A DNA stretch of 35,973 nt from a virus (taxonomy: Duplodnaviria; Heunggongvirae; Uroviricota; Caudoviricetes). Shown here piece after piece: positions 2,933 through 34,748 of this stretch. A program made the position numbers and the translations under genes. Numbering within the stretch: position 1 is the first letter of the stretch; the number at the start of each line of letters is the position of its first letter. The stretch lies in IMG/VR virus record IMGVR_UViG_3300014890_000016, positions 1-35,973 of that record. One strand, given 5' to 3'. Below the pieces are notes generated by a model, which saw nothing but the letters and a program-made list of their open reading frames with translations, searched no databases and was not told where the DNA came from.

Positions 2933-3343
2933 ATGAACGCAAAAGAAAAAGGCATTGTAACTGCGCTAAAAAATATATCGAAGACCGCAAACAGAGCCAT
3001 TCAGGATGCAACAAATGCAGGAATGATTGGGCCTGCCACCACAGCCATGATGATAGCAAGAGTAACCGCCGAAGCAGCCGAAATTATCGAAAAACAGGAT
3101 GCTGAACTAACGGTTCTCAGAACACAACCAGTCACCGGACTGGATTTGTCTAACACCGGACGCCTTATTTACACAATTGGCTCGGAGCCACAGCAATACA
3201 CCATTATCGCCGGATTACAGGATAAATACCTGATCACTCCTCACCCCATAAGGGAATCAGAAATTCTGACAAATCTCCGCCTGATAGAGCGCTCTCAAGT
3301 CGCATTCATTGATGACGCACAGCGCACCGTATTTAACGCATAG
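2933..3343 (+). CDS. Hypothetical early protein
   Basis: 136-aa ORF with GGAG Shine-Dalgarno; no family recognised. Confidence 0.55.
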   Translation: MNAKEKGIVTALKNISKTANRAIQDATNAGMIGPATTAMMIARVTAEAAEIIEKQDAELTVLRTQPVTGLDLSNTGRLIYTIGSEPQQYTIIAGLQDKYLITPHPIRESEILTNLRLIERSQVAFIDDAQRTVFNA

Positions 3344-5175: not shown

Positions 5176-5406
5176 ATGGCAAACCGCAAACAGCACCGCG
5201 CTATCGCGGAGCGTCGTCACATCCAGACTGAAATCAACCGTAGACTTTTCCGCGCATCACGCGTCGCGCAAATCATGCACATCAATATGCTGCATGAGCG
5301 CAGTCATGCGCTATCAAACACTTATTCCGCCTCTGTTTTTAGCTATCTGGCGGATGATTTGTACGAGCTTCAGCAGCTCATCCAGCAGCAAAACAAACTC
5401 CATTAA
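5176..5406 (+). CDS. Hypothetical protein
   Basis: 76-aa ORF with GAGAGG Shine-Dalgarno 7 nt upstream; sits after a structured non-coding stretch. Confidence 0.4.
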   Translation: MANRKQHRAIAERRHIQTEINRRLFRASRVAQIMHINMLHERSHALSNTYSASVFSYLADDLYELQQLIQQQNKLH

Positions 5407-5478
5407 TTCCTGTTCCGGGCCTTTCCTGCACCTTGCGGCGGGAGGCCTTCGCACATCTGTAACAAGAGGATTGCCGCA

Positions 5479-5844
5479 ATGATTCTCGCCAACGACTTTC
5501 TTGAATACCTGCTCAACACAGAGCGTGATCTTGCCGTTCGCGTGCGTGAACGTTATGACATGCACCTGAAATCCCTGCCTGTACCGCAGCTCGCTGACGG
5601 AAAGATTGTTATTGATGGTCGCTACATGATTGACAGCCACGAGGGAAATTACAGGCTTTACCGCATTGAAGGTGGCACCCCGTACGTTATTGGCATTTAC
5701 CAGCGCCCATCCTCCGCAATCGTCGATGTGATTGCCGACAGCATCCGCATCACACATCGCCATGCCGACACAGAAGACACCGTGCTGGAAATTCAGCGGC
5801 TGGCTACAGTCTGCCGCGACACCCTGAATGGCATGACGAAGTAA
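5479..5844 (+). CDS. Hypothetical protein
   Basis: 121-aa ORF with AGAGGA Shine-Dalgarno, immediately upstream of gpA. Confidence 0.5.
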   Translation: MILANDFLEYLLNTERDLAVRVRERYDMHLKSLPVPQLADGKIVIDGRYMIDSHEGNYRLYRIEGGTPYVIGIYQRPSSAIVDVIADSIRITHRHADTEDTVLEIQRLATVCRDTLNGMTK

Positions 5845-8749: not shown

Positions 8750-9709
8750 ATGAAAATTTGTATCGACGACGGCTCCACCAACATCAAGCTGGCATGGACT
8801 AAGAACGGCGAACGCCGCAACGCCATCAGCCCGAACAGCTTCAAGTCGGAATGGTCTGCGCCGTTCGGTGGCACGCAGCCCGCGAACTACATGCTTGATG
8901 GCGTGCGCTATGGTTTTGATCCGGTCAGCGATCGCTTTGTCCAGACGACCGACACGCAATACCAGTACAGCGATGTGAATGTCATTGCCATTCATCACGC
9001 GCTGGTCAAATCAGGCATCACGCCACAGGAGGTGGATGTGGTTGTCACCCTGCCACTGAGCGAGTATTTCGACACAAACGCACAGCCGGACATGGCCAAC
9101 ATCAACCGCAAAAAAGCGAACGTTATGCGCCCGGTGGAGTACCAGAACGGCGAAGCATTCACTATCCGTAACGTACGGGTTATGCCTGAATCCATTCCGG
9201 CTGGCTTTAAGGCACTGGCTGACATGAGTCCGTTTGAATCCCTGCTGATTGTGGATTTGGGCGGAACCACGCTGGATGTGGCAAAGGTTCAGGGGCAACT
9301 GGCAGGTATCAGCCAGGTGTTTTGCGATCCACACGTAGGCGTTTCCCTGATGGCCGATGCAGTACTCTCGGTGATGGCCGCTAACGGTATGCGTACCAGT
9401 CACCACATCGCCAATACCATTATCGAACATCGCCATGATGAAGCCTGGCTGCGCCAGCACATCCACAATGACACGCATTACGCCAGCCTGATGGCGGTTA
9501 TTCGTGAAAAGGAAGAAACACTGAAACAACGCGTGATCCGCGCGCTGGCGGTTTTTTCGGGTTACGGGCGGGTGATGGTTGTCGGTGGAGGGGCGGAGAT
9601 TGTAGCACCCGCTATCCGCGAAGCCTGCGGAGTTAATGCGACTTTCATCGCGGACGGGGTGCCACAGTTTGCTCTGGTTAATGGGCTGTACGCAATGGAC
9701 AAGGAGTAA
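8750..9709 (+). CDS. parM: Actin-like ATPase of the ParM/StbA family
   Basis: 319 aa; MKICIDDGSTNIKLAW, ISPNSFKSEW, QYSDVNVIAIHHAL, VMPESIPAG, IVDLGGTTLD, SGYGRVMVVGGGAE and LVNGLY align along the whole length with plasmid R1 ParM as recalled. Confidence 0.85.
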   Translation: MKICIDDGSTNIKLAWTKNGERRNAISPNSFKSEWSAPFGGTQPANYMLDGVRYGFDPVSDRFVQTTDTQYQYSDVNVIAIHHALVKSGITPQEVDVVVTLPLSEYFDTNAQPDMANINRKKANVMRPVEYQNGEAFTIRNVRVMPESIPAGFKALADMSPFESLLIVDLGGTTLDVAKVQGQLAGISQVFCDPHVGVSLMADAVLSVMAANGMRTSHHIANTIIEHRHDEAWLRQHIHNDTHYASLMAVIREKEETLKQRVIRALAVFSGYGRVMVVGGGAEIVAPAIREACGVNATFIADGVPQFALVNGLYAMDKE

Positions 9710-9713
9710 ACCA

Positions 9714-10028
9714 ATGACGACACCAACCAGACGGATAAGTTTCTATCTGAAGCCTGCGGCCGTCAAGAGTGAACAGGAGGCGTGCAATTACCTCGACAGC
9801 CTGCCAGCCTCCGAACGCAGCCGCGCGCAACGCGCGGCTTTTCTGGCCGGACTGGCTCTTATAAAACGCACCCCCGCGTTGGCGTATTCGCTGGCAGAAT
9901 GGTCAGAAGACGAAATACGGATGCCATCGCTACCAGCACAGCCTGAAAAACCGGCGCAACCAGCAGCAGACAGCGCCCCCCATATGCAGCAGGTGAAAAA
10001 GAATATTCAGGCGTTTTTCCCGAAGTGA
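9714..10028 (+). CDS. parR: ParR-like DNA-binding adaptor
   Basis: 104 aa directly after parM with AAGGAG Shine-Dalgarno; N-terminus RRISFYLKP...LDSLPASERSRAQRAAFLAGLAL parallels R1 ParR (RRTIAFKLNP...LDSIPQGERSRLNRAALTAGLAL). Confidence 0.7.
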   Translation: MTTPTRRISFYLKPAAVKSEQEACNYLDSLPASERSRAQRAAFLAGLALIKRTPALAYSLAEWSEDEIRMPSLPAQPEKPAQPAADSAPHMQQVKKNIQAFFPK

Positions 10029-10042
10029 AAACAGGAGTAACT

Positions 10043-10330
10043 ATGCCCACCATTACCAAAGAATGGTTACAACGTAAAATCACAGAGTTTAAATCGTGGC
10101 GCGAAGACATCCCGTTCGGTCTTGATGAAGACGATCACAATATGTTAATCGCACTGGAAATCGCACTTGCATCACTGGAAGCAGAGCCAGTGGCATGGAT
10201 GCACGCAAATAATCCTATTGGAATACCGGCGATAACAAGAAGTAAAGATGTTGCAGACAGCTGGCGCTCTAAGGGATGGAATGTATTGCCTCTTTATTCA
10301 CTGACCCGCTCCATCAATTTATGCCATTAA
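10043..10330 (+). CDS. Hypothetical protein
   Basis: 95-aa ORF with CAGGAG Shine-Dalgarno; no family recognised. Confidence 0.5.
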   Translation: MPTITKEWLQRKITEFKSWREDIPFGLDEDDHNMLIALEIALASLEAEPVAWMHANNPIGIPAITRSKDVADSWRSKGWNVLPLYSLTRSINLCH

Positions 10331-10341
10331 TGGAAGTAATC

Positions 10342-10701
10342 ATGATGAAAGATAATTCCGGAAGCCAGCGTGCATCAGTTGCAGTTATGGTAATGATTAA
10401 ATTTGTGAAACAGTACACCGGAAAGCCAATCTCACTCCGGCAATTAAGCAAAGAAACCGTTTCACTGTCATATCTGGAGCAAATATTCAGATATTTACGG
10501 GAAAGTAGCTTGGTAAAAGCCACACGCGGCCCGGGTGGTGGATATATCCCAACAAAAGAAAATTACAGTGTTGGTGATATTGTCCGGGCAATGAAATGTT
10601 CCGGATTATATACACAGCACGTTATTCTGGCTGCACTGGATAATATTTCTTTAACCAGCCTGCAAGAAGACACAAATTATCAGTTGTCTGCCATTGAATA
10701 A
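10342..10701 (+). CDS. Rrf2-family winged-helix transcriptional regulator, short form
   Basis: ISLRQLSKETVSLSYLEQIFRYLRESSLVKATRGPGGGY matches the Rrf2/IscR signature; no Cys cluster, so probably not Fe-S binding. Start could also be the ATG at 10330. Confidence 0.65.
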   Translation: MMKDNSGSQRASVAVMVMIKFVKQYTGKPISLRQLSKETVSLSYLEQIFRYLRESSLVKATRGPGGGYIPTKENYSVGDIVRAMKCSGLYTQHVILAALDNISLTSLQEDTNYQLSAIE

Positions 10702-10769: not shown

Positions 10770-11027
10770 CTATCCAGCCTGCAACAACTCCAGCGCCATC
10801 TGTTTTTCTTCCGGGCGCATCCGTTCAATCAACAGCTTTAACACACCGTGATCCAGCCCGCTGGGCACCAGTGTGTGCGAGTAGGTCAGATTCATCACCC
10901 AGGTATGTCCGCACTCGAGACGGGTGCAACGGTAATACACATCAGCAAACTGATCGGTTTTCCAGGCTGTTTTCTCAATCACTGCATGTGCACCGCAGCA
11001 ATGACATCGCGCTTTCTGTCTGCGCAT
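10770..11027 (-). CDS. ogr: Ogr/Delta-family zinc-finger late transcription activator
   Basis: 85 aa from ATG at 11027 with GGAGG Shine-Dalgarno; C-x2-C, 22 residues, C-x4-C spacing identical to P2 Ogr. Confidence 0.65.
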   Translation of the reverse strand: MRRQKARCHCCGAHAVIEKTAWKTDQFADVYYRCTRLECGHTWVMNLTYSHTLVPSGLDHGVLKLLIERMRPEEKQMALELLQAG

Positions 11028-11092: not shown

Positions 11093-12127
11093 TCACTCCA
11101 TGGGTTCATCAAAATCAAGAATAAATTTCACCTCCCCCAGTCGCCTGATATCCGGGTCACTGTTGATCCCCTCCATAATCAGACGGCGCATCGGAATAAC
11201 CTCATCCCTGTAATATGCCTCGCGGGATTTAAGTGGGTCGCCAAGCCCGGCCGTATTTGCGGGAATGATGCCTGCAAGTCCGGGTGGAAAACGGTGCGCC
11301 ACGAGCTGATCCTGAGCACTGATGGTTTTTATATTCAGGAACTCATCTTTTGTACCTGAATCCCCGATAGGGATCACCTTAACGCCTTCTTTGTCTCCGC
11401 CAGGTATATTGATAAACATGGATTTAAAATTGCCCGCCCCTTTTGAGGCCTCTATCTTTTTACGGAATTCCGCCTCGAGCTCGGGATCCATGTCCGGGTC
11501 AGTGGAATACAGGATATAACCAAGATGTGCGCCGTTCTTGTAATACTTGCGGCGAAAGCGGGTGGCATCCACATTCAGCATGGCAGATTCCATCCCGTGA
11601 ATATAATCCGGGACACCGTAAACCTGCTGTTGCGGGTCATAAATGGCCACAAACACCACTTCACCTGACGGATACACGAGATCTTCCAGTGCCGCCTGCA
11701 CAATCACCGTGCCCCCCTCGTTGTTGCGCCGCAGGTACAGAGAAGGCAACGTATGCAGGCGCACCACCCGACCAAAGCCATTACGTACTTTAAGCAACCC
11801 CATATCCCCGAATATCAGCAGATTGGTCACTGCTGCCGCCATGGCGGCGTGTGTCATACCACCACCACCCCGAAAACCCTGCATGATCATATTGACGCGC
11901 GCACGCAATACCGCGCCGTGATACGGCGCGATATTGGACAACATGGCAAGATCCATGCGCTCAATGGGCGGCGTGTACCAGCCGTTATAGCCATCCCAGA
12001 GCGAGCCGTAATAACAGCCCCATGCAGCAACCGGTTCAGGGTCACCAAATTCAATAAACGTCATTTTGCTGGCTGTTTTTTTTGCCACGCCATCGTGTAG
12101 CACGGGGGATTTTTTCTTTTTACTCAT
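11093..12127 (-). CDS. Q: Portal protein, P2 gpQ-like
   Basis: 344 aa; position and orientation as in P2, downstream of and overlapping the terminase gene. Confidence 0.85.
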   Translation of the reverse strand: MSKKKKSPVLHDGVAKKTASKMTFIEFGDPEPVAAWGCYYGSLWDGYNGWYTPPIERMDLAMLSNIAPYHGAVLRARVNMIMQGFRGGGGMTHAAMAAAVTNLLIFGDMGLLKVRNGFGRVVRLHTLPSLYLRRNNEGGTVIVQAALEDLVYPSGEVVFVAIYDPQQQVYGVPDYIHGMESAMLNVDATRFRRKYYKNGAHLGYILYSTDPDMDPELEAEFRKKIEASKGAGNFKSMFINIPGGDKEGVKVIPIGDSGTKDEFLNIKTISAQDQLVAHRFPPGLAGIIPANTAGLGDPLKSREAYYRDEVIPMRRLIMEGINSDPDIRRLGEVKFILDFDEPME

Positions 12128-13907
12128 CTGACAGGATCCATGTTGATTTGCGCTTGTGCTTATAGTTCAGGGGTTCATTACTTGCGGCATGAGCTATGGC
12201 AAAGAAGATGTCAGCGTGCCCGGTTTCTTCGCTACGTTCAGCGGTAAAAGTAACTTTATTGCCACTGTTGGTGGATTCCTGACGAATGGCCAGAAATGAT
12301 GCCGGAATATCCGTGGCTCCCTCATCCCACTCAATACGGTTGGCGTAAATCAGATCCAGCATCTTCATCACCAGGCGGTTTTTGGATTCAACGCTGTAAT
12401 GAATGGCCACTGTTTCACGGCGGGCAAATCCCTGAACCAGCTCAAAGACACCATAGCCAAGCCCGGTAACATCAATGCCGATAAACGTCATGTTATAGCG
12501 CGCCTTAATGCTGCGGATACGCTCTGCCATAAACTGGAATGACATGCTGCGCCAGTGGTGTTTTTCCAGCACGCGGAATCGTTCTGCCGCAACCAGCGGC
12601 GGTGCCAGCACCACAAACGTGGCGTTATCGCCGGAGCGCGCAGGGTCAAAGCCACCCCACACTTCACGGTTTCCAAATGGCATGGCATCTTCCGGGTGAA
12701 AATCCTCCCACGTACTGACATCAACGCCACAGCGCACGAGGTCATCGAATTTAAAGACGCTCTCTTTGTCATCCACAAACACGCACATATACAACATATT
12801 GAATGCTGTTTCGTTATATCGCTCGCGCAGCTCGTCAATGTTGGCAAGGTTAAAGCCGCCGGCAATGGCATCTTCCATTGTCACCACATAGCGCCACTGA
12901 CCATCCGGGCATTCGCGCCCGCCATCGCGCAGTTCATCAAAGGACGGGAACTCAACCCCTTTTCGTTTCGGGTCGCCTTTGCGCCATTCATCGCCAGACC
13001 AGAACGGGTAGCCCTGGTGTGTTTTGGATGACGGCGTGGAGAAGTAGGTAATGCGCCAGTGCGAGTGGGTGGCCATACCGGACGCCACTTCATTGAGGCG
13101 ACGAAAAGCGGGGATCCACAGATATTCGTCAATGTACAGGTGGCCGCTGTTTGACTGCGCCGTATTGCTGTTGGTCGCCAGAAAATACAGTTCAGCAAGA
13201 TTACTTAACTTAACCGGGTTGCCTTTAATGGGAATGCCAAATTCCGTCTGTGCAATCTTAACGATATAGGTGCGGAACACTTCGGCCTGGCGTTTTGATG
13301 CCGATAAAAATATCTGTGTGTCGCCGGTTAATACCGCATCTTCAAATGCCTCAAACGCGAAGTAATATGTCGCCCCAATCTGACGAGATTTAAGCAGGTT
13401 GCGTACACGGCGGAATTTGTTTTCACGCAGATGCAACTGATAAGCAAACAATTTTTTCGTAAACGGCTCAAAACTTTCAGCAGTCAGTCCGGAAACGTCA
13501 TTAGCTTTGCGGGGGCGCTCTTTCTTACCTGCACCTTTTTCTCCGCGTTCTTCTTTTCCATAACGACCAGACTGGGGAATATCCGCTCCCATTCGTTCAA
13601 TCTCGGCCATTCGTTCCGCGTGCTTGTTCCTGACCGACATCAGTTTGACGTGATGGCCAATCAGGCGATCGAGTTCATCGTGTTCTTCCGGCGTTTTATG
13701 ATCACGCTCCGCCAGTACAGCGAGACGACGGGCGATAACATCCTCCACGCCTTCAGTATTAAGCTGCGTGTACCACTCAAACTTTGTCGCCCAATAATAA
13801 ACAATTCGCGGGCTGTTTAGTCCGAGCTTCTTTTGTATTTCTTTTGGTGTGTGTCTTTTCAGATAGAGCGATTTTGCAGCAGCAATCACCTCATCAGAAT
13901 ACGCCAT
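12120..13907 (-). CDS. P: Terminase large subunit (ATPase), P2 gpP-like
   Basis: 595 aa; divergent from the O-N-M-L operon as in P2; Walker-type and nuclease-type regions present. Confidence 0.85.
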   Translation of the reverse strand: MAYSDEVIAAAKSLYLKRHTPKEIQKKLGLNSPRIVYYWATKFEWYTQLNTEGVEDVIARRLAVLAERDHKTPEEHDELDRLIGHHVKLMSVRNKHAERMAEIERMGADIPQSGRYGKEERGEKGAGKKERPRKANDVSGLTAESFEPFTKKLFAYQLHLRENKFRRVRNLLKSRQIGATYYFAFEAFEDAVLTGDTQIFLSASKRQAEVFRTYIVKIAQTEFGIPIKGNPVKLSNLAELYFLATNSNTAQSNSGHLYIDEYLWIPAFRRLNEVASGMATHSHWRITYFSTPSSKTHQGYPFWSGDEWRKGDPKRKGVEFPSFDELRDGGRECPDGQWRYVVTMEDAIAGGFNLANIDELRERYNETAFNMLYMCVFVDDKESVFKFDDLVRCGVDVSTWEDFHPEDAMPFGNREVWGGFDPARSGDNATFVVLAPPLVAAERFRVLEKHHWRSMSFQFMAERIRSIKARYNMTFIGIDVTGLGYGVFELVQGFARRETVAIHYSVESKNRLVMKMLDLIYANRIEWDEGATDIPASFLAIRQESTNSGNKVTFTAERSEETGHADIFFAIAHAASNEPLNYKHKRKSTWILSDE

Positions 13908-13994
13908 AAATAAACCTCACCTGCTGATGCAATTTTAATTTATGCATTTTCAGCAAAGGCTTTTTTAAAAACGAATATCGCTTTTCGGTATTTT

Positions 13995-14018
13995 TCGGAT
14001 ATATGCGCATATCCGAAA
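13995..14018. promoter_or_regulatory. Inverted repeat centred in the P/O divergent late-promoter region
   Basis: TTCGGATAT-N6-ATATCCGAA, 9-bp perfect arms, roughly 100 bp from each start codon. Confidence 0.4.
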
Positions 14019-14101
14019 GTACCGGAAATTAATCAGATGACGACATTTTTATTTCTCCGTTAAATAACGCCAGTTTAATTTTTATCAGCGGATTAATTCA
14101 G

Positions 14102-14998
14102 ATGACGAAGCAGAAAACAGACTGGGTTGTGGTTGCCACATCAGGCCCCACCATCGACGGTCGGGAAATTGATCCGAAGTGGCTGACAGATGCCGCCGAG
14201 GTTTACAACCCGGACGAGCGAGCCGCCATGCTCTGGCCATATCACGCCGATTCCGGATGGCGTGCCTTCACCAATAACTACGGCCTTGTTGATGCCCTGA
14301 AAGTCGAAAAATTTGGTGACAAGGTGCAGCTTAAAGCACGCCTGATCCCAAATCGCTTCCTGATTGAAGCCAATAAGGCCGGGCAGAAACTTTTTACCTC
14401 CATTGAGGTGCGGGAAAACTATCTGGGCACGGGCAAATTCTTTGTGTCCGGTATCGCCGTGACGGATACCCCGGCCAGCATTAACACCACACGTCTGCAG
14501 TTTTCCATGGGGGAAACCATCCATATGGGCAGCGCAGAGGCGCTGAATTTTACGCTGCAGCCTGATGATGAGCAGGCAAAGCGCAACTTCTTCTCCCGCT
14601 TCTTCTCATCTGACAACCACCAACAGGGAATCTACCAAGCCATGAACGAAGAACAGTTCAGCCAGTTAATGGGCGCTATTAATAAAACCAGCGAACGCCT
14701 GGACAAGCTGGAAGAAAACGTCGCGCAGTTCAGCACGAAGGATGCCCCGAAAGATACCGGTGATAACAAGCCGGAAGGCAGCGCCGGCGATCAGGGGCAG
14801 GACAACGCAGAACCGAACAACAAGGACGAGAAAACCTTCACGCTGACCACCGAGCAGGGCGAAAAGCTGTTCTCCACGGTGAACGCTATCGCGGAGAAAG
14901 TCACCAGTATGGAAACCGCATTTGCTGAACTCAGCAAGGATGCCACGAAGCTGCCGGGTAACAATCCGGCCGGTGGCGAAACTTTTAACCTGGTGTAA
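14102..14998 (+). CDS. O: Capsid scaffolding protein, P2 gpO-like
   Basis: 298 aa; first gene of the rightward head operon; acidic C-terminal half. Confidence 0.8.
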   Translation: MTKQKTDWVVVATSGPTIDGREIDPKWLTDAAEVYNPDERAAMLWPYHADSGWRAFTNNYGLVDALKVEKFGDKVQLKARLIPNRFLIEANKAGQKLFTSIEVRENYLGTGKFFVSGIAVTDTPASINTTRLQFSMGETIHMGSAEALNFTLQPDDEQAKRNFFSRFFSSDNHQQGIYQAMNEEQFSQLMGAINKTSERLDKLEENVAQFSTKDAPKDTGDNKPEGSAGDQGQDNAEPNNKDEKTFTLTTEQGEKLFSTVNAIAEKVTSMETAFAELSKDATKLPGNNPAGGETFNLV

Positions 14999-15012
14999 CC
15001 GGAGAGAACGCA

Positions 15013-16026
15013 ATGAACATGACACCAGAAGCACAAAAGCTGGTTAACCAGTACCTCAGCGAACTGCAAAAAACATTCAGTGACTGCGCTGTCTCAGGCG
15101 ATCGCACTTTTTCCCTGACCGAACCGCGCAGCATTGCCCTGCGTAAAGCCCTGCTGGAAAGCACGGAATTTCTGAATTTCACCACCTGCATGGATGTTCC
15201 GCACCCGCAGGGGCAGGTCGTCACCGTGGGCGAATCCACGCTGCGCACCGGTCGCGTGAAAAGTGGTCGTTTCGCCAAAGGTTCTGGCATCAAAGGCAAC
15301 GAATTCAAACTCGTTGAAACTGATTCCTGCTGTGTGATCACCTGGGAACAACTCGCCATCTGGGCGAATGCCGGCAGCCCGCAGGAATTTTTCAATCTGA
15401 TGAACTCCGCCGCCGTCACCAACTTTGCGCTGGATATGCTGCGCATTGGCTTTAACGGTAAAACAGCCGCAGAAAACTCCGATCCTGAAAGTAACCCGAA
15501 CGGTGAAGACGTCAACATCGGCTGGCATGAAATCGCCAAAAAATGGGGAGAACGGCCCGGCAATACCTCCCGTATTCTGACGGACGCCGTTACCCTGGGC
15601 GAAGGCGGTGATTATGTCGGCCTTGATGCCATGGCCTCAGACCTGATCCGCACTTACATCCCGGCGCAATATCACAACGATCCTCGCCTTACCGTGCTGG
15701 TTGGCGCAGACCTTGTGGCTGCTGAAGAACTGCGCCTCTACAACAAAGAGGACAAGCCCACCGAAAAAGTAGCCGCACAGTTGCTGACGAAGAACATCGC
15801 AGGCCGCAAGGCCATCATTCCGCCGTTTATGCCGGGTAAGCGTATGGTGGTGACCATGCTGCCAAACCTGCAGATCCTGACGCTGAAGGGGTCCCGCCGT
15901 CGTAAGGCAGAAGATGTGGGCGATCGCAAACAGTTCGAAAACTCATACTGGCGTTATGAGGGCTACGCCCTGGGCGATCCGAATTTATATGCTGCCGTGG
16001 ATGAGTCTGCGGTAACCATCGCCTGA
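15013..16026 (+). CDS. N: Major capsid protein, P2 gpN-like
   Basis: 337 aa; FNGKTAAENSDPESNP...DVNIGWHEIAKKW...GEGGDYVGLDA parallels P2 gpN. Confidence 0.85.
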   Translation: MNMTPEAQKLVNQYLSELQKTFSDCAVSGDRTFSLTEPRSIALRKALLESTEFLNFTTCMDVPHPQGQVVTVGESTLRTGRVKSGRFAKGSGIKGNEFKLVETDSCCVITWEQLAIWANAGSPQEFFNLMNSAAVTNFALDMLRIGFNGKTAAENSDPESNPNGEDVNIGWHEIAKKWGERPGNTSRILTDAVTLGEGGDYVGLDAMASDLIRTYIPAQYHNDPRLTVLVGADLVAAEELRLYNKEDKPTEKVAAQLLTKNIAGRKAIIPPFMPGKRMVVTMLPNLQILTLKGSRRRKAEDVGDRKQFENSYWRYEGYALGDPNLYAAVDESAVTIA

Positions 16027-16043
16027 TAAACGGAGCGCACGGT

Positions 16044-16754
16044 ATGCCAACGCCAATGCAGCGACAACGTGCCCGACAGATGGATGAGCGCCGTGCAGCA
16101 CTCATGACCAGAACGGACGGGAGCGCCGTCAGTACAGAGAGCCAGCACATTAAGCTGCTGGCACTGAATAACGACATCAGACAACTGCACAACATGGAGC
16201 TGCTGTCTGACAAGCTGGAATTCAAGCGGAACACGCTGCTGCCCCGCTGGCTGCCACACGCACAGGGTTATCTGGAGGGTGAGCGCGTCTATCAGAATCC
16301 TATTCTGGTGTACTGCATCATCTGGCTGTTCGATACCGGGCAGTTTGAGCTGGCGCTGCGGTGGACTGACATTGCCATTGAGCAGGGACAGAAGACGCCG
16401 GAGAACTTCAAAAGCGAGCTGCCAACGTTTGTAGCCCATTTCATTCTTGAATGGGCCGAAACCGAAGCTGAACGCGGGAACAGTATCGCGCCATATTTTC
16501 AGCAGGTGTTTGAAAAAATCCGCGACAAATGGCGTGTGAATGAACGTCTTGCTGCCCGCTACTGGCGCTTTGCAGGCGTCCAGCTGCTGCGCGGCGATGA
16601 CGGTAAACCGCTGGCCAGTGCAATTAATGATCCGGGGATACTGCAACAGGCCGACCAGTGTCTGGAGCGGGCTGCCTGGCTGCATCCCAAAATTCAGGTG
16701 AAGACTCTGCGCCAGCGCATTGCCGCAAGACTGCGCGCGTTGCAGGGCACGTAA
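16044..16754 (+). CDS. M: Terminase small (endonuclease) subunit, P2 gpM-like
   Basis: 236 aa; position after the capsid gene as in P2. Confidence 0.8.
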   Translation: MPTPMQRQRARQMDERRAALMTRTDGSAVSTESQHIKLLALNNDIRQLHNMELLSDKLEFKRNTLLPRWLPHAQGYLEGERVYQNPILVYCIIWLFDTGQFELALRWTDIAIEQGQKTPENFKSELPTFVAHFILEWAETEAERGNSIAPYFQQVFEKIRDKWRVNERLAARYWRFAGVQLLRGDDGKPLASAINDPGILQQADQCLERAAWLHPKIQVKTLRQRIAARLRALQGT

Positions 16755-30466: not shown

Positions 30467-32160
30467 AATTAACCCAGCGCTGTATGATTAATGGTGAGCT
30501 GGCGGAAATTGCCGATATCAGCCTTGTTCTTACCCTGAATGCTGCCGGGCGCGGCTTCATTTCTGTTAATAATCTGCCCCCCCAAAAAAGCCTTGCCGGC
30601 GCAATGATACAAATTGATCTCGGCCGTAATGGTGAGGCATGGCGCTATTTCTCCGGCTACATTGAGCGCGATCAACCCGCCGAAAATGGCTCACGCCGCC
30701 TTTTTATCCGTGAAGCAGCTGCCGTGCTGGATTTTGATTTCCCCTGCTCCATGCAACATCCAACGTTACGGGATGTACTCGATAATCTGGGTAAACAAAG
30801 CGGCATCGTTTTCATCACGCCAGATGCGGATTACGTCAGCACACCGACACCTTACATCACCCACAGCGGCAGCGGAGCACAACTGCTCAGCCAGTTGGGG
30901 CGAGCATTCAGTATCAGCGATTACGTCTGGCATCCAATGCCGGACGGTTCCGTATTTGTGGGAAGCGCACCGGATTCACGGTTTGCCAGTATTACCATGC
31001 CGGATATTCCGCAACAATACACACTCGGGCAAAGCGGCGGAAACAGCATCGACATCATGTTTATGGAAACTGTGCGACCGGGCGTGAACCTTCCGGCCGG
31101 GCGCATTACCCGTGTAGCCCTCAACAACGAGAAAATGACCCTGACATGGGAACGCCTTACCGCCACGGGTAGCCCTGTTTCCAAATCACCATTACGCAGA
31201 CAGATGGAAACACAGTTCCCGGAACTGGCCAGCGGCACTCTGCATACCCGGCTGGCGCGCGTCATTGCGCCAACGGAATCTGTCACCCTGGGCGATATTG
31301 CCGACAGCTTCCGCCCACGCTACGCCGTCGATGTGCAACTGCTTGATGAGAATGGCAACGATAAAAGCGATACGCCTGTTTATCCGGCTGTACCACTCCC
31401 CGTCCCGATGGCTGGTAGCGAGGCGGGATGTTTTGCCTACCCGCCAGCAGGCACCATCGTGGAAATATCCAACATTGAAGGGCGACCGGATAAACCTGTC
31501 ATCAGGCAAATCTTACCCGCGGGCCATAACCTGCCTGATGTAAAGCCCGGCGAACAGCTGCAGCAACAGCGCGCAGAGGTGTTTCAGCGCGTCACGACTG
31601 ACGGAAGCTGGTACAGAGAAACTGACCAGCAAATCAGGGAGCATTCAGCCAGGCGAACCATTAACAGCGATCAGGAAGAACGCACAACAACAACCAGAAC
31701 AACAACAGTCCAGGCAAACGACATAACCAGTGTTCTTGGTACCAGTAAGCTGATGACAGGCCAGACAGAACACCTTACTACCGGCAATTATGCGATCGCA
31801 GCCGGTGAGCATATCCAGATGGTAGCGCAGAATTTGCTGACTCAACTCAAAGGGGCGATATCCACTATTGAGCATGACCTCACCGAAAACGTGGGAGGCC
31901 GCAGAACATGCAGGGCAGACAGCGGTCTGGAATTTACCGCCCCGACAGTATTTATTGGTCGCGGCGGCTCGCGGGAAAAGTCCGGACTTAACCTGCTGAC
32001 GTTGCTGATCGATATTCTGGACCTGGTTCAGTTGCTGGCCACACATACAGCAAACCACACCCATAGCAACACTGGCACGCCAATGAACAGCAGCGAATTT
32101 GCAGCAGATGCCCTGCAGGCGACGAGCCTGCGCGAAAAATACGGCGACATTATCGCCTGA
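30463..32160 (+). CDS. D: Baseplate hub protein, gpD-like, with C-terminal extension
   Basis: 565 aa; N-terminal region resembles the late-control-D family pattern; C-terminal LLATHTANHTHSNTGTP is His-rich; last gene of the late operon, followed by a terminator. Confidence 0.5.
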   Translation: MKLTQRCMINGELAEIADISLVLTLNAAGRGFISVNNLPPQKSLAGAMIQIDLGRNGEAWRYFSGYIERDQPAENGSRRLFIREAAAVLDFDFPCSMQHPTLRDVLDNLGKQSGIVFITPDADYVSTPTPYITHSGSGAQLLSQLGRAFSISDYVWHPMPDGSVFVGSAPDSRFASITMPDIPQQYTLGQSGGNSIDIMFMETVRPGVNLPAGRITRVALNNEKMTLTWERLTATGSPVSKSPLRRQMETQFPELASGTLHTRLARVIAPTESVTLGDIADSFRPRYAVDVQLLDENGNDKSDTPVYPAVPLPVPMAGSEAGCFAYPPAGTIVEISNIEGRPDKPVIRQILPAGHNLPDVKPGEQLQQQRAEVFQRVTTDGSWYRETDQQIREHSARRTINSDQEERTTTTRTTTVQANDITSVLGTSKLMTGQTEHLTTGNYAIAAGEHIQMVAQNLLTQLKGAISTIEHDLTENVGGRRTCRADSGLEFTAPTVFIGRGGSREKSGLNLLTLLIDILDLVQLLATHTANHTHSNTGTPMNSSEFAADALQATSLREKYGDIIA

Positions 32161-32200
32161 ACACCAGACATAAAAGCCACATAAACGCCCCATCACGCAA

Positions 32201-32226
32201 CGCACGGTCCCGGCCGTGCGTTTTCC
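32201..32226 (+). terminator. Rho-independent terminator ending the late operon
   Basis: CGCACGG-loop-CCGTGCG hairpin followed by TTTT. Confidence 0.5.
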
Positions 32227-32702
32227 TATCCACCACCTGATTAATGCGTTCTGCGTGCCATTCTGGCGCTGTATGCACACACCGCGTAAACGGTGTGACG
32301 TAAAGCGTGAGGTGACGTAAACCGCGCTACCCCCTCCAACCCGCGGGTTTCGTGTCGAAACAGTTTTTCAGTTTTCTGCCGTGCAAAAATGACCGCCAGC
32401 CCGCGCAGTAACTAAGGGAAAAGCGAAGATCTGAAATTTCACGCCGGGAAATTTTTTGCAGTTTTCAGAGAGATTTTTACGATCCCATAAATGGCAGGAG
32501 AAATAAAACAGTATGATATTAAAAGAATTTTCATGCTTTACGCGAGACGAAAAACGATCACGAAAGGATCGCATCAAACAACCATCAAACAAAGAAGCCA
32601 GACGCGGCGCGGACTGCGTAAAATCAAGAGCCAGAATCAAACTGAAAAAAGGATCAATTCCGTGCTCTGATCGCACATGACGATCTACGCAGTAACAGGA
32701 CG

Positions 32703-32728
32703 AAAAAAACCGGCGCGAACGCCGGCGG
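32703..32728 (-). terminator. Rho-independent terminator for a leftward transcript
   Basis: On the minus strand CCGCCGGCG-TTCG-CGCCGG followed by seven T; no minus-strand CDS ends here, so it would terminate a short RNA. Confidence 0.45.
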
Positions 32729-32806
32729 AAGCGTGTATCAAATACGTAATTGGGTAATGTCTAAGGTCGGGAATTTTACATCAGAAAACTGACAAGTCTC
32801 AACGGA

Positions 32807-32836
32807 TTGAAACAAGGGAAAAAACCAGGCTAGAAT
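32807..32836 (+). promoter_or_regulatory. Candidate sigma70 promoter upstream of the hok-like ORF
   Basis: TTGAAA, 18-bp spacer, TAGAAT; about 150 nt upstream of the toxin start codon. Confidence 0.35.
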
Positions 32837-32988
32837 TCGCACGGGTGCCTTTCGGCTGATGGCTGGAGGGAATACCCGAAGGCCGGATGTGGAAAGGCCC
32901 CGGAAAACATTTTTGTTTAACCGAGGCCCTAACCATCTACCCTAGACAAGTGATAGGTTAGCGCCTCCCTGAAAAAGGAGCAAGCGCT

Positions 32989-33129
32989 ATGTCGCAAAAA
33001 TCGCTTACGGCCATTACGTTCTGCGTAACGGCAATCCTCATCATCTGGATGCTGCACGGTTCACTGTGTGAAATACGGATGAGCTTCTGGGGAGCGGAGT
33101 TTGCGGCGTTCTTACAGTGTAAGCAGTAA
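32989..33129 (+). CDS. hok: Hok/Gef-family type I toxin peptide (46 aa)
   Basis: MSQKSLTAITFCVTAILIIWMLHGSLCEIRMSFWGAEFAAFLQCKQ: one TM helix then the SLCEIR motif and an AAFL.CK C-terminus as in HokA/PndA; GGAG Shine-Dalgarno. Below the ORF-track cutoff. Confidence 0.7.
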   Translation: MSQKSLTAITFCVTAILIIWMLHGSLCEIRMSFWGAEFAAFLQCKQ

Positions 33130-33214
33130 GGAAACCGCGACGGGGGAGCAATCCCCCGTCAATCGGTTGCCAGGGTAAGGTCGATAAGGCACCCTATCTC
33201 GCAAACCTGAATGC

Positions 33215-33246
33215 AAAAAGCCCGCAGGATTAATCGCGGGCTTTTT
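33215..33246. terminator. Bidirectional Rho-independent terminator
   Basis: AAAAA-GCCCGC-loop-GCGGGC-TTTTT; ends the hok transcript and the convergent minus-strand gene. Confidence 0.55.
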
Positions 33247-33275
33247 ATTTCCAGAGAGGGTGGTTGGCTTACCGA

Positions 33276-33713
33276 TTATTCTTCATTTTCCTTTGACGTT
33301 ATTACCACAGTAGCCAGTTTATCAATCAGGCGCTCACACGCATCAACATCTTTGAGGTTTCTTAATTTGAGCTTTGCAGTTTTAGGCTCATCATCTCTGG
33401 TACAAAGGTGTAGCTCAACTTCAACATCATTCCTGTTTAACAACCCCATAATAACCCCTGCAAATTTTTTCGCCCGTGAGAGCAATTCGAACATAACACT
33501 AAGCATATCGGGTGCATTCGCAGAGAAGCAAGTCACGCGACCTATATCAAATCCATTATTTTGAAAATACTCCTCTATTGAAGAGGAAAGCTCTGAAGGG
33601 CATGTAATCCTGACACTTGCAAATCGGGACTGATGTAATGGTGTTCCCTTTAAATATTGCACTTGAAGCCTCCGCATTAAAACTACAGCACAAGTGAGGC
33701 CAAACAGCCCCAT
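33276..33713 (-). CDS. Hypothetical protein
   Basis: About 145-aa ORF divergent from com; start uncertain (TTG 33719, ATG 33713 or ATG 33677); no family recognised. Confidence 0.45.
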   Translation of the reverse strand: MGLFGLTCAVVLMRRLQVQYLKGTPLHQSRFASVRITCPSELSSSIEEYFQNNGFDIGRVTCFSANAPDMLSVMFELLSRAKKFAGVIMGLLNRNDVEVELHLCTRDDEPKTAKLKLRNLKDVDACERLIDKLATVVITSKENEE

Positions 33714-33732
33714 GAACAAAATAGAAAACGCA

Positions 33733-33766
33733 GATCGATAATATAAAACCGATCGATAAAATCGAT
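33733..33766. promoter_or_regulatory. Three ATCGAT palindromes, two containing GATC, in a divergent promoter region
   Basis: ATCGAT at 33733, 33752 and 33761 between the leftward ORF and the com-methylase operon. Confidence 0.35.
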
Positions 33767-33814
33767 CAATTTGTTATCATACCGGCAGCAGTAACCACAT
33801 AAGAGGTGCCGCAA

Positions 33815-34012
33815 ATGACGCAAAATGTACGATGCAAAAATTGCAACAAACTACTTGCCCGCGCCTCATTTCACTACATTGAAATAAAATGTCCGCGCTG
33901 CAAAACACTTAACCAGATAACGAGAGCCATTGAGCACCCCACACACATGAGGAGCTATGACCGTGGGGATCGCAATCCAGCACCAACCAGCACATACACC
34001 GGAACACACTAA
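33815..34012 (+). CDS. com: Com-like zinc-finger translational regulator
   Basis: MTQNVRCKNCNKLLARASFHYIEIKCPRCKTL matches Mu Com (MKSIRCKNCNKLLFKADSFDHIEIRCPRCKRH); AAGAGG Shine-Dalgarno; 3' end overlaps the methylase gene as com overlaps mom in Mu. Confidence 0.7.
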   Translation: MTQNVRCKNCNKLLARASFHYIEIKCPRCKTLNQITRAIEHPTHMRSYDRGDRNPAPTSTYTGTH

Positions 34013-34748
34013 GGTTTATCAGACTGACAATGCCACGCTCTGTCGTGGGAATGCGCTGGAAATATTGCCGCTGATTGAGCCAGAAAGCATTGACGCCTTA
34101 ATCACTGATCCGCCTTACAGTTCGGGCGCGACACATAAGGCCGGACGCACCAACCATGGTAGCCATGCAAAATATCTGAACGGCGAGAGCCTTCACCGCT
34201 TTGATGGGTTCGCGGGTGAAAACATGGACGCCCGTTCGTGGGCTTACTGGACACAATTATGGATGGCACAGGCACACCGCGCAGTCAGGCCGGGCGGTTA
34301 TGCCCTGGTATTTACTGACTGGCGACAACTACCAGCTTTAACCGATGCGTTTCAGGCCAGTGGTTTTACATGGCGCGGCATCATTGCGTGGAACAAGGGG
34401 AGGGGGTCACGAACACCACATACCGGATATTTCCGGCATCAGTGCGAATACATCGTCTGGGGCAGCAAAGGCCATTTAGATAAATCGCCTTCGGGGCCGT
34501 TCGACGGCTGCATGACGTTCCCGGTTATCCCGTCAAAGAAAATGCACCCGACCGGAAAACCAGAAGAACTAATGGCAGAACTGGTCAGGACTGTGAATAG
34601 CGGCGGAACAGTCCTTGATCCTTTTATGGGGTCAGGGACAACGGGTGTGGCTGCACTTAAAGCAGGACGCAAATTTATTGGTATAGAAACCAGTGATCAT
34701 TATTTTGATGTAGCAACACAACGGCTCAAAACGGCGATCGAACCATAA
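33957..34748 (+). CDS. DNA methyltransferase, N6-adenine/N4-cytosine class
   Basis: 263 aa; catalytic DPPY (ALITDPPYSSG) precedes the SAM-binding FMGSGTTG motif; target base not determinable from sequence. Confidence 0.85.
   Translation: MTVGIAIQHQPAHTPEHTKVYQTDNATLCRGNALEILPLIEPESIDALITDPPYSSGATHKAGRTNHGSHAKYLNGESLHRFDGFAGENMDARSWAYWTQLWMAQAHRAVRPGGYALVFTDWRQLPALTDAFQASGFTWRGIIAWNKGRGSRTPHTGYFRHQCEYIVWGSKGHLDKSPSGPFDGCMTFPVIPSKKMHPTGKPEELMAELVRTVNSGGTVLDPFMGSGTTGVAALKAGRKFIGIETSDHYFDVATQRLKTAIEP

What the first reader, a model, noticed from the sequence alone, without database searches (positions are those of the whole stretch)
13908..14101. Symmetric element centred between the divergent late operons
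A 9-bp perfect inverted repeat TTCGGATAT-N6-ATATCCGAA lies mid-way between the terminase and scaffold start codons. In P2 this region holds back-to-back late promoters each with an Ogr site near -55, but the P2 consensus is TGT-N12-ACA, so this would be a different specificity. A 15-nt stretch including the scaffold start (TTAATTCAGATGACGA) is also duplicated 65 bp upstream with a 1-nt difference.
Basis: partly seen in the sequence, partly recalled or inferred. Interest (0 to 1): 0.45.

Follow-up and report, generated by a model that had tools for sequence, protein, structure and literature searches.

The report
Shared late-promoter activator site, HP1-type phage
The palindrome between the terminase and scaffold genes of this E. 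coli prophage is a conserved protein-binding site that most likely lets the phage's own Ogr-like zinc-finger activator switch on both divergent late operons at once; it is the HP1/K139-group counterpart, with a different sequence, of the well-known shared Ogr site of phage P2.

Summary
TTTCGGATAT-N6-ATATCCGAAA (13993-14018) is a perfect 10-bp inverted repeat, unique in the window. Its centre (14005.5) lies 1 bp from the midpoint of the two start codons.

It is the core of a four-half-site array, TTCGG-N5-TTCGG-N14-CCGAA-N5-CGGAA (13984-14027). TTCGG-N14-CCGAA, or a version degraded on one side, is kept in all 23 lineage representatives with TerL identity of 54% or more, and in the isolated phages K139, HP1/HP2, ESSI-2 and vB_YenM_324, while the rest of the spacer diverges. 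A -10-like hexamer sits 43±1 nt from each end of the core in 23/23 lineages. This predicts start sites near 13939 (-) and 14072 (+), each 66.5 bp from the dyad.

A PF04606 Ogr/Delta protein (10770-11027, -) follows the portal gene in every sufficiently long locus that has the motif. P2's record annotates one shared activator site at -55.5 from both its P and O start sites.

So this is the same kind of element as in P2, with a different consensus (no TGT-N12-ACA) and probably different spacing. The 11-nt direct repeat is real but not conserved; its upstream copy overlaps a conserved -35-like ATGAC box. Binding and start sites are inferred, not shown.

The parts
13993..14018 (.). Core inverted repeat TTTCGGATAT-N6-ATATCCGAAA (family consensus TTCGG-N14-CCGAA); proposed activator-binding dyad, centre 14005.5
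   Evidence: perfect and unique in the window. (conserved in 23 lineages and in K139, HP1/HP2, ESSI-2 and YenM_324). (36 of 38 exact matches in 2.9 M viral contigs lie between TerL and scaffold homologues). (the only PWM hit above noise in the window, in K139 and in HP1).
13984..14027 (.). Full four-half-site array TTCGG(13984-88)-N5-TTCGG(13994-98)-N14-CCGAA(14013-17)-N5-CGGAA(14023-27); the outer half-sites lie 10 bp from the inner ones
   Evidence: 48-mers from 23 lineages aligned without gaps show TTCGG-like outer-left and C(C/A)GAA-like outer-right columns. (information-content peaks at flank offsets 6-10). (K139 and YenM_324 have CCGAA-N5-CCGAA). (a 19-pair extended palindrome, z = -3.5).
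14060..14065 (+). Predicted -10 hexamer (TTAAAT) of the scaffold-side late promoter; predicted start site near 14072 (A), giving a 5'UTR of about 30 nt
   Evidence: a -10-like hexamer lies at offset 43±1 nt from the end of the core on this side in 23/23 lineages (TTAAAT, CATACT, AATACT, AATAAT, TTTACT); conservation peak. The start site is inferred, not mapped.
   Evidence: ATGAC/ATGCR is conserved at offsets 20-24 from the core across E. coli, Edwardsiella, Yersinia and Providencia lineages.
13946..13951 (-). Predicted -10 hexamer (GAAAAT on the - strand) of the terminase-side late promoter; predicted start site near 13939 (A on -), giving a 5'UTR of about 32 nt with Shine-Dalgarno GGTGAGG
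   Evidence: nAnAAT (GAAAAT, CATAAT, AATAAT, GAGAAT) at offset 42-43 in 23/23 lineages, all with A at position 2 and T at position 6.
14033..14043 (+). Upstream copy of the 11-nt direct repeat TCAGATGACGA; it starts a mini-ORF MTTFLFLR* (14037-14063)
   Evidence: only the ATGAC part is conserved. The in-frame TAA is the -10 hexamer itself and the ORF lies upstream of the predicted start site, so the mini-ORF is a by-product of the 17-nt spacer.
14098..14108 (+). Downstream copy of the direct repeat, spanning the scaffold start codon (ATG 14102)
   Evidence: It is altered in E. albertii and other near relatives (ATGTCGAAA) and absent in Edwardsiella.
10770..11027 (-). Ogr/Delta-family zinc-finger gene (85 aa, CX2CX22CX4C), the third gene of the terminase-portal transcription unit; proposed trans-acting factor
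   Evidence: motif. (PF04606, 48.3 bits). (PGAP names the homologue 'ogr/Delta-like zinc finger family protein'). (Shine-Dalgarno GGAGG, and a terminator-like hairpin only after this gene). (a homologue follows the portal gene in every locus with the motif whose DNA reaches that far). (24% identity to P2 Ogr, 46% to K139 orf13).
11093..13907 (-). Leftward late operon: large terminase (12120-13907) and portal (11093-12127)
   Evidence: PHROG terminase large subunit and portal protein.
14102..16754 (+). Start of the rightward late operon: scaffold gpO (14102-14998), major capsid (15013-16026), small terminase (16044-16754). Head-completion, tail and lysis genes continue on the same strand to 32160.

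Best explanation
The window is a P2/HP1-hybrid prophage of E. coli. It has P2-type int-C-cox, with late genes in the HP1/K139 order.

The palindrome is the core of a roughly 44-bp array of four TTCGG-type half-sites arranged as two direct and two inverted copies. The array sits exactly between two divergent, activator-dependent sigma-70 late promoters.

The proposed mechanism is as follows. The phage's Ogr/Delta-family zinc-finger protein, encoded after the portal gene, binds the array as a symmetric oligomer. From about -66.5 (core) to about -48 (proximal outer half-site) it recruits RNA polymerase to both weak-(-35) promoters. One promoter transcribes terminase-portal-ogr leftward. The other transcribes scaffold-capsid-small terminase and probably the rest of the virion and lysis genes rightward. 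Because the activator gene lies in the leftward operon, the switch would reinforce itself.

Shown: the sequence element, its conservation, its fixed spacing to -10-like hexamers, its near-exclusive location, and its co-occurrence with the Ogr-like gene.

Inferred: that the Ogr-like protein is the binder, the start sites, activation rather than repression, and the feedback loop.
For: (1) The repeat is perfect, unique and central.

(2) Phylogenetic footprint. TTCGG-N14-CCGAA, or a one-sided degraded version of it, is kept in all 23 lineage representatives with TerL identity of 54% or more. These come from Escherichia, Edwardsiella, Yersinia, Providencia and IMG/VR contigs. Flanking spacer sequence and even spacer length (152-230 bp) vary.

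(3) The element is present in isolated, viable phages K139, HP1, HP2, ESSI-2 and vB_YenM_324.

(4) -10-like hexamers lie at offset 43±1 nt on both sides in 23/23 lineages. The -35 regions are poor, 4/6 and 2/6 in the window. Insertions in E. coli variants fall downstream of the -10 and leave the geometry intact.

(5) Specificity of location. Of 38 exact matches to TTCGGATAT-N6-ATATCCGAA in 2.9 million viral contigs, 36 lie between TerL and scaffold homologues. A PWM finds one site only in the window and in K139. In HP1, which was not used to build the PWM, the top hit (16.5 bits) is in the P-O spacer, just above the best of 50 shuffles (15.3; mean 6.6).

(6) An Ogr_Delta protein is encoded in the window. 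Its homologue follows the portal gene in every locus with the motif whose DNA reaches that far, and tblastn finds none in all but two of the loci (TerL identity of 44% or less) that lack the motif; those two have only weak hits of 26-29% identity.

(7) Precedent. P2's record annotates a single activator site shared by pP and pO, 55.5 bp from each mapped start site. Smp131's PP' and PO' are assigned the same coordinates on the two strands (PMC3931495).

(8) The immunity modules differ between carriers. The window has a P2-type C/Cox, whereas HP1 and K139 have a CI type (PMC3448106). The binder therefore travels with the late module.

(9) The HP2 GenBank record marks the equivalent 56-bp palindrome as 'most likely contains promoters for late genes'.
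Against: There is no binding, start-site or expression data for any member of this group.

The co-occurrence of motif and Ogr-like gene is confounded by shared ancestry and synteny.

I could not read a clear protein-DNA co-variation from the alignment. The only hint is that the clade with a TTAGG/CCTAA variant carries IRRS instead of IRKT after the first Cys pair.

The consensus, the half-site spacing (19 bp centre to centre, against 15 bp in TGT-N12-ACA) and the predicted position (-66.5, against -55.5) all differ from P2. The window protein is only 24% identical to P2 Ogr.

Only one site exists per genome. P2 has further Ogr sites before its tail operons, so an operon of about 18 kb or unrecognised internal promoters must be assumed.
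Confidence: 0.7

Rival explanations
1. The array is bound by a host transcription factor or nucleoid protein conserved across Gammaproteobacteria, or by another phage protein, rather than by the Ogr-like protein. It would still regulate the divergent late promoters.
For: Binding by the Ogr-like protein is not demonstrated. The motif is kept across hosts as distant as Haemophilus, Vibrio and Escherichia, as a site for a conserved host factor could be. The site differs from every characterised Ogr/Delta site.
Against: The exact motif is almost confined to the P-O spacer of this phage group (36 of 38). It does not match any E. coli regulator consensus that I can recall (CRP, FNR, IHF, Fis, LexA, DnaA, HipB's TATCC-N8-GGATA and others); this is from memory, not a test. 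The one other nearby regulator gene, Rrf2-like (10276-10701), is missing from many loci with an identical repeat. Immunity regulators are of different, unalignable types among carriers. The TTCGG motif is absent from the C/cox control region.
Confidence: 0.15
2. The palindrome acts as a nucleic-acid structure, either a DNA cruciform or an RNA hairpin serving as terminator, attenuator or processing site, rather than as a protein-binding site.
For: The single strand folds into a 19-pair hairpin of -12 kcal/mol, z = -3.5. Several arm changes between lineages are symmetric, for example GGATAT/ATATCC against GGTTAA/TTAACC.
Against: It lies upstream of the conserved -10 hexamers on both sides, so neither late transcript should contain it. 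In several lineages the left arm decays (TTCTG, TTACG, AACGG) while the right arm stays intact. The N14 spacing is fixed while the spacer sequence is free. Extra half-sites are direct repeats at 10-bp phase, which a hairpin does not explain. There is no T-run after the stem in the window. Symmetric changes are equally expected for a site bound by a dimer.
Confidence: 0.05
3. The site is an operator for a repressor that keeps the late genes silent in the lysogen.
For: Palindromic operators are typical of repressors, and nothing here shows the direction of the effect.
Against: The core lies at about -79 to -54 and the outer half-sites reach only about -43, so no -10 hexamer is covered. Both promoters have poor -35 boxes, as activator-dependent promoters do. 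The homologous position in P2 is an activator site. Immunity repressors differ between carriers.
Confidence: 0.07
4. The 11-nt direct repeat (14033-43 and 14098-108) is a functional pair, for example a leader peptide or translational coupling device, or a second regulator site.
For: The exact 11-mer, 16 of 17 positions with one indel, is unlikely by chance: 22 of 2000 shuffles. The upstream copy opens an 8-codon ORF.
Against: The pair is not conserved. The downstream copy changes within the E. coli/E. albertii group, and there is no duplication in Edwardsiella, Yersinia, Providencia or K139. Only ATGAC of the upstream copy is conserved, at the -35 position. In some E. coli variants the upstream ATG is GTG. 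The mini-ORF's stop codon is the -10 hexamer, and the ORF lies upstream of the predicted start site.
Confidence: 0.03

Closest known systems
Phage P2 shared pP/pO activator (Ogr) binding site, TGT-N12-ACA class (also 186 B, P4/phiR73 Delta, PSP3 Pag)
   Same: A single dyad lies midway between the divergent terminase (P) and scaffold (O) late promoters and is equidistant from both (P2: 3063-3080, 55.5 bp from start sites 3016 and 3127). An Ogr/Delta CX2CX22CX4C zinc-finger gene is in the same genome. The -35 elements are weak.
   Different: The consensus is TTCGG-N14-CCGAA (24 bp, half-site centres 19 bp apart) with two extra outer half-sites, instead of TGT-N12-ACA (18 bp, centres 15 bp apart). 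The predicted dyad position is -66.5 rather than -55.5. There is one site per genome instead of sites at four late promoters (PMC3931495). The activator gene sits after the portal gene, not next to att. The protein is only 24% identical to Ogr.
HP2 'repeat_region' 12555-12610 (NC_003315) and the equivalent spacers of HP1, K139, ESSI-2 and vB_YenM_324
   Same: This is the homologous element. It occupies the same place between P and O and has the same TTCGGATAT / ATATCCGAA half-sites. K139's arms are identical to the window's over TTTCGGATAT/ATATCCGAA. An Ogr-like gene follows Q in each: K139 orf13 'zinc-finger protein', 'transcriptional regulator' in ESSI-2 and YenM_324, and an unannotated ORF in HP2.
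   Different: In HP2 the outer TTCGG...CCGAA arms are 24 nt apart, with an inner partial half-site at N14. The window has the compact N14 form. The public records call it only a repeat likely to contain late promoters (HP2), or place putative sigma-70 hexamers over it (K139). Neither record names a consensus or a binding protein.
Class I activator sites acting on divergent promoters (for example CRP at -61.5/-71.5)
   Same: An upstream dyad on the same helical face as -55 (offset about 11 bp), in a position compatible with contact to the RNA polymerase alpha C-terminal domain, which is the known target of P2 Ogr (established knowledge, recalled from memory).
   Different: There is no sequence resemblance to the CRP or FNR consensus, and the factor is phage-encoded. 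This is an analogy of mechanism only.

Membership tests
P2-type Ogr/Delta-dependent late promoter | An Ogr/Delta-family zinc-finger activator (CX2CX22CX4C, PF04606) is encoded by the same element | tested here: met
   The product of 10770-11027 (-) scores 48.3 bits against a cut-off of 26.3 and carries the CX2CX22CX4C motif. PGAP gives the homologue the same name.
P2-type Ogr/Delta-dependent late promoter | A region of dyad symmetry matching TGT-N12-ACA upstream of the promoter | tested here: not met
   There is no TGT-N12-ACA in 13908-14101, and none of the 10 window matches (8.7 expected) lies before a late operon. The dyad present is TTCGG-N14-CCGAA.
P2-type Ogr/Delta-dependent late promoter | The dyad is centred at about -55 from the transcription start | tested here: inconclusive
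   The conserved -10-like hexamers predict -66.5 on both sides, but start sites are not mapped. The proximal pair of half-sites would be centred near -53.5.
P2-type Ogr/Delta-dependent late promoter | One site is shared by the divergent P (terminase) and O (scaffold) promoters | tested here: met
   The dyad centre is 14005.5. The -10 hexamers begin 54.5 bp away on each side.
P2-type Ogr/Delta-dependent late promoter | Transcription depends on the activator and on the RNA polymerase alpha C-terminal domain | not testable with these tools
   This needs reporter assays, in vitro transcription or rpoA mutants.
HP1/K139-group P-O intergenic palindrome (the HP2 'repeat_region') | A TTCGG...CCGAA dyad with GGATAT-type half-sites between the TerL and gpO homologues | tested here: met
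   Of 38 exact matches in viral contigs, 36 are in this position.
HP1/K139-group P-O intergenic palindrome (the HP2 'repeat_region') | HP1-type late gene order, with an Ogr-like gene directly downstream of the portal gene | tested here: met
   PMC8537503 reports the same ogr position in K139 and Smhb1.
cos / packaging site | Lies at the genome ends of the linear virion DNA | tested here: not met
   In the HP1 and K139 records the homologous spacer is internal (13.6-13.8 kb and 15.4-15.6 kb) and cosL is at position 1 next to attP. PMC2771037 states that HP1-like cos sites lie next to attP.

The most novel reading that the evidence does not exclude
HP1/K139-type Ogr-like proteins form a distinct specificity class. 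They would read a 44-bp array of four phased TTCGG half-sites as a higher-order oligomer, for example two dimers. From one position, one helical turn further upstream than in P2, they would fire two divergent promoters at once. These two promoters would be the only activator-dependent promoters of the phage, so the whole virion and lysis programme would hang on one site. The activator gene sits inside one of the two operons, which would make the switch self-locking. In many lineages the terminase message made from this switch would be leaderless.
Probability: 0.3. Interest if true: 0.5.

Novelty: new variant of a known kind. Interest (0 to 1): 0.35.

Why it matters
It gives a precise, testable cis-element and a candidate factor for late-gene control in the HP1/K139/ESSI-2 branch of the Peduoviridae. 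The records and papers I could read offer only 'putative promoters' or a 'repeat region' there.

It would show how the Ogr/Delta family diversified its DNA specificity while keeping the shared bidirectional P/O architecture.

The 24-bp consensus is also a highly specific marker of the P-O junction of such prophages (36 of 38 exact hits). It could serve as a compact bidirectional, activator-gated promoter part. It could also help in searching for satellites that exploit these helpers, as P4 does with TGT-N12-ACA sites.

Tried and rejected
- Nucleotide BLAST of the region and of the spacer against 50,697 phage records found nothing. Relatives had to be reached through the terminase protein.
- TGT-N12-ACA is absent from the spacer and not enriched in the window.
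- A simple sigma-70 scan found no promoter in 13700-14300. The conserved hexamers score 8/12, just under its threshold.
- A second copy of the dyad before other late genes was not found. There was none at 3 mismatches or fewer. Relaxed core matches occur at chance level, 17 against 17.9 expected. All PWM hits apart from the P-O site are in the noise.
- The Rrf2-like regulator (10276-10701) as binder is rejected. It is missing from many loci with an identical repeat.
- A cos site is rejected.
- A leader peptide (MTTFLFLR) is rejected as a by-product of the -35/-10 spacing.
- Two exact motif hits outside the family (L101, L107) lie in AT-rich, unrelated phage DNA between co-directional genes and are taken as chance or terminator-like hairpins.
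- No solved structure exists for the Ogr-like protein. The only matches are faint Rpb9/TFIIS zinc-ribbon similarities at E of 0.2 or more.
- Literature. Six full-text searches (one search failed) found no description of this motif. The K139, P4 Delta and HP2 primary papers are not held, so an earlier description in them cannot be excluded.
- Protein-DNA co-variation across 30 Ogr-like sequences was not interpretable beyond one hint.

Full report
**What is in the sequence**

The region 13908-14101 is the 194-bp spacer between two divergent genes. One is the large terminase (12120-13907, - strand). The other is a gpO-type scaffold protein (14102-14998, + strand).

Its perfect arms are 10 nt, TTTCGGATAT and ATATCCGAAA, at 13993-14002 and 14009-14018, with a 6-nt spacer. 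It is the only match in the window even with three mismatches allowed, and none of 100 shuffles gave a match. A perfect repeat of this size arose in 15 of 2000 shuffles of the spacer. Its centre, 14005.5, is 1 bp from the midpoint of the two start codons.

The 11-nt direct repeat TCAGATGACGA (14033-43 and 14098-108) is also real. A repeat that long arose in 22 of 2000 shuffles.

**Genomic context**

The window is an integrated P2-family prophage. Its genes run in this order:
- integrase, a P2-type C repressor and Cox
- replication protein A
- ParM-type partition genes and an Rrf2-like gene
- an Ogr/Delta zinc-finger gene, portal and terminase on the - strand
- scaffold, capsid, small terminase, head completion, sheath, tube, lysis, tape measure and baseplate on the + strand, ending at 32160

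This late gene order is that of HP1 and K139, not of P2. Forty-two of 5,426 complete E. coli genomes carry the same region at 60-99% identity, 40 of them at 90% or more. In one of them it is inserted next to pheA, and PGAP labels the small gene 'ogr/Delta-like zinc finger family protein'. Prophages of E. coli and Yersinia that combine a P2-type switch with HP1-like structural genes have been described (PMC3448106).

**Conservation**

No nucleotide match exists in the phage collection, so I collected loci through the terminase protein: 18 from genomes and 75 from viral contigs.

In every locus with TerL identity of 54% or more, the P-O spacer contains TTCGG-N14-CCGAA or a version degraded on the terminase-proximal side. 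Examples of the degraded form are TTCTG, TTACG and a TTAGG/CCTAA variant. One Providencia locus has N13. The rest of the spacer is unalignable between genera, and its length ranges from 152 to 230 bp.

The same element is present in isolated phages. K139 has TTTCGGATAT-AACCCC-ATATCCGAA. vB_YenM_324, ESSI-2, HP1 and HP2 also carry it.

Sequences from 23 non-redundant lineages, aligned without gaps on the core, show two further half-sites 10 bp outside the inner ones. In the window these read TTCGG 13984-88 and CGGAA 14023-27. Together they give a four-half-site array of about 44 bp.

**Promoter geometry**

On both sides of the core a -10-like hexamer lies at offset 43±1 nt in 23 of 23 lineages.
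- Terminase side: GAAAAT, CATAAT, AATAAT or GAGAAT, always with A at position 2 and T at position 6.
- Scaffold side: TTAAAT, CATACT, AATACT, AATAAT or TTTACT.

In the window these hexamers are 13951-13946 (- strand) and 14060-14065 (+ strand). They predict start sites near 13939 and 14072, both A, each 66.5 bp from the dyad.

The -35 regions are poor. ATGACG (14037-42) matches the consensus at 4 of 6 positions, with a 17-nt spacer to the -10. TTCGTT matches at 2 of 6. Poor -35 boxes are what is expected of activator-dependent promoters.

Insertions of 26-36 bp in some E. coli variants fall downstream of the -10 and leave the geometry intact.

These start sites are inferences from conservation. 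Nothing has been mapped.

**Specificity of location**

An exact-pattern scan of 2.9 million viral contigs found 38 occurrences of TTCGGATAT-N6-ATATCCGAA. Thirty-six lie between TerL and scaffold homologues with TerL identity of 42-99%. The other two are in unrelated AT-rich phage DNA.

A weight matrix built from the sites finds exactly one hit above noise in the window and in K139. In HP1, which was not used to build the matrix, the top hit (16.5 bits) is in the P-O spacer. Shuffled HP1 sequence gave maxima averaging 6.6 bits, the highest being 15.3. These phages therefore carry one such site each.

**Which factor binds it**

The window protein from 10770-11027 is a PF04606 Ogr_Delta protein with CX2CX22CX4C. 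It is 24% identical to P2 Ogr and 46% identical to K139 orf13.

A homologue follows the portal gene, on the same strand, in every locus with the motif whose DNA reaches that far. tblastn finds none in all but two of the loci (TerL identity of 44% or less) that lack the motif; those two (L074, L087) have only weak hits of 26-29% identity. No terminator-like hairpin separates portal and ogr in the window, whereas one follows ogr.

The neighbouring Rrf2-like gene is absent from many loci whose repeat is identical, so it is not the binder. Immunity regulators are of different types among carriers: P2-type C here, CI in HP1 and K139. The factor therefore travels with the late module.

This co-occurrence is confounded by common descent, and I found only one hint of protein-site co-variation. 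The clade with the TTAGG/CCTAA variant has IRRS where the others have IRKT.

**Comparison with P2**

The P2 RefSeq record annotates one 'activator binding site; pO, pP promoters' (3057-3087) between the mapped start sites 3016 (P) and 3127 (O). The dyad TGT-N12-CCA (3063-3080) is 55.5 bp from each. Smp131's PP' and PO' are likewise assigned to the same coordinates on opposite strands (PMC3931495).

The window shares this architecture but differs in four respects:
- The consensus differs. No TGT-N12-ACA is present in the spacer, and the pattern is not enriched in the window.
- The half-site spacing differs: 19 bp centre to centre here, 15 bp in P2.
- There are extra phased half-sites.
- The predicted dyad position is about one helical turn further upstream.

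The element therefore works like a P2 late-promoter site but fails the defining TGT-N12-ACA test. It belongs instead to the homologous HP1/K139-group element.

**What is already on record**

The HP2 record marks a 56-bp 'repeat_region ... most likely contains promoters for late genes' at this position. The K139 record places putative sigma-70 hexamers over it. PMC8537503 notes that the ogr homologue of K139 and Smhb1 sits between the portal and replication genes.

I found no description of the consensus, the four-half-site array, the fixed geometry or the binding factor. The primary K139, HP2 and P4 Delta papers are not in the library.

**Rival explanations**

- Host factor or another phage protein. 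This cannot be excluded without binding data. It is disfavoured by the near-exclusive location of the motif and by the lack of resemblance to any consensus I know; the latter point is from memory only.
- Hairpin or cruciform. This reading is supported by the fold. It is contradicted by the position upstream of both -10 hexamers, by one-sided decay of the arms, by the fixed N14 spacing with free spacer sequence, and by the direct-repeat half-sites.
- Repressor operator. This fits poorly with a site that covers neither -10 hexamer.
- cos. This is excluded because the homologous spacer is internal in the HP1 and K139 virion DNA and HP1-like cos sites lie next to attP.

**The direct repeat**

Only the ATGAC of the upstream copy is conserved, at the -35 position. 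The downstream copy varies with the scaffold N-terminus, and the duplication is confined to part of the E. coli group.

The 8-codon ORF it opens ends at the TAA inside the -10 hexamer whenever the spacer is 17 nt, and it lies upstream of the predicted start site. I regard it as incidental.

**Verdict**

This is the HP1/K139-group version of the shared, bidirectional Ogr-type late activator site: a new sequence variant of a known kind of element.

I put about 0.85 on it being a protein-binding late-promoter control site, and about 0.7 on the full model with the Ogr-like protein as activator.

Interest is moderate (0.35). The result is tidy, widely conserved and directly testable, but it would not surprise a P2 specialist.

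Noticed in passing
window 33806-34748: A Com-type zinc-ribbon ORF (PF10122, 68 aa, 33806-34012) overlaps the start of an N6/N4 DNA methyltransferase gene (33957-34748). The layout resembles Mu com/mom, where Com activates translation of the downstream modification gene. The pair is absent from the otherwise syntenic E. coli locus L001.
   Followed up: partly
window 10276-10701: An Rrf2-family regulator gene lies convergent with the ogr-like gene. It is present in only some of the near-identical E. coli prophages, so it looks like an accessory gene of unknown target.
   Followed up: partly
window 8750-10028: ParM-type and partner partition genes sit inside an integrated P2/HP1-type prophage, between the replication gene and the late region. 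This raises the question of an episomal phase.
   Followed up: no
loci L044, L048-L050, L057, L058, L064, L006 and others; K139 15433-15445: In 10 of 23 lineages, and in K139, the conserved terminase-side -10 hexamer ends only 6-7 nt before the TerL ATG. This predicts a leaderless or nearly leaderless terminase mRNA. The window has a 32-nt leader with a Shine-Dalgarno sequence.
   Followed up: partly
L139 (HP2) about 5390-5650; L096 (HP1) 10420-10700, - strand: HP2 carries an intact 86-aa Ogr-like ORF (CX2CX22CX4C) after the portal gene that is not annotated in NC_003315. In the HP1 record NC_001697 the same ORF is split by a frameshift between the first Cys pair and the rest. This may be a sequencing error or a real mutation of strain HP1c1.
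   Followed up: partly
L019, L011, L014 (Aliivibrio/Vibrio prophages, TerL identity about 37%): A different dyad, TTCTATAT-N5/6-ATATAGAA, sits in the same P-O spacer. No Ogr-like gene was detected within 5 kb. This suggests that the central-dyad architecture is older than any one specificity.
   Followed up: no
L020, L024, L026, L028, L031 (E. coli variants), terminase leader: Insertions of 26-36 bp carry one or two tandem copies of TTACGGAACG between the predicted -10 and the TerL start codon, lengthening the leader to about 64-74 nt.
   Followed up: no
loci L064, L070, L062, L084: This clade has the half-site variant TTAGG/CCTAA (and TTTGG) instead of TTCGG/CCGAA. Its Ogr-like proteins have IRRS instead of IRKT just after the first Cys pair. 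It is a candidate specificity-determining change.
   Followed up: partly
window 32160-33800: About 1.6 kb after the last tail gene has no convincing ORF. By analogy with HP1-like phages, where cos lies next to attP, cos and attR may lie here.
   Followed up: no
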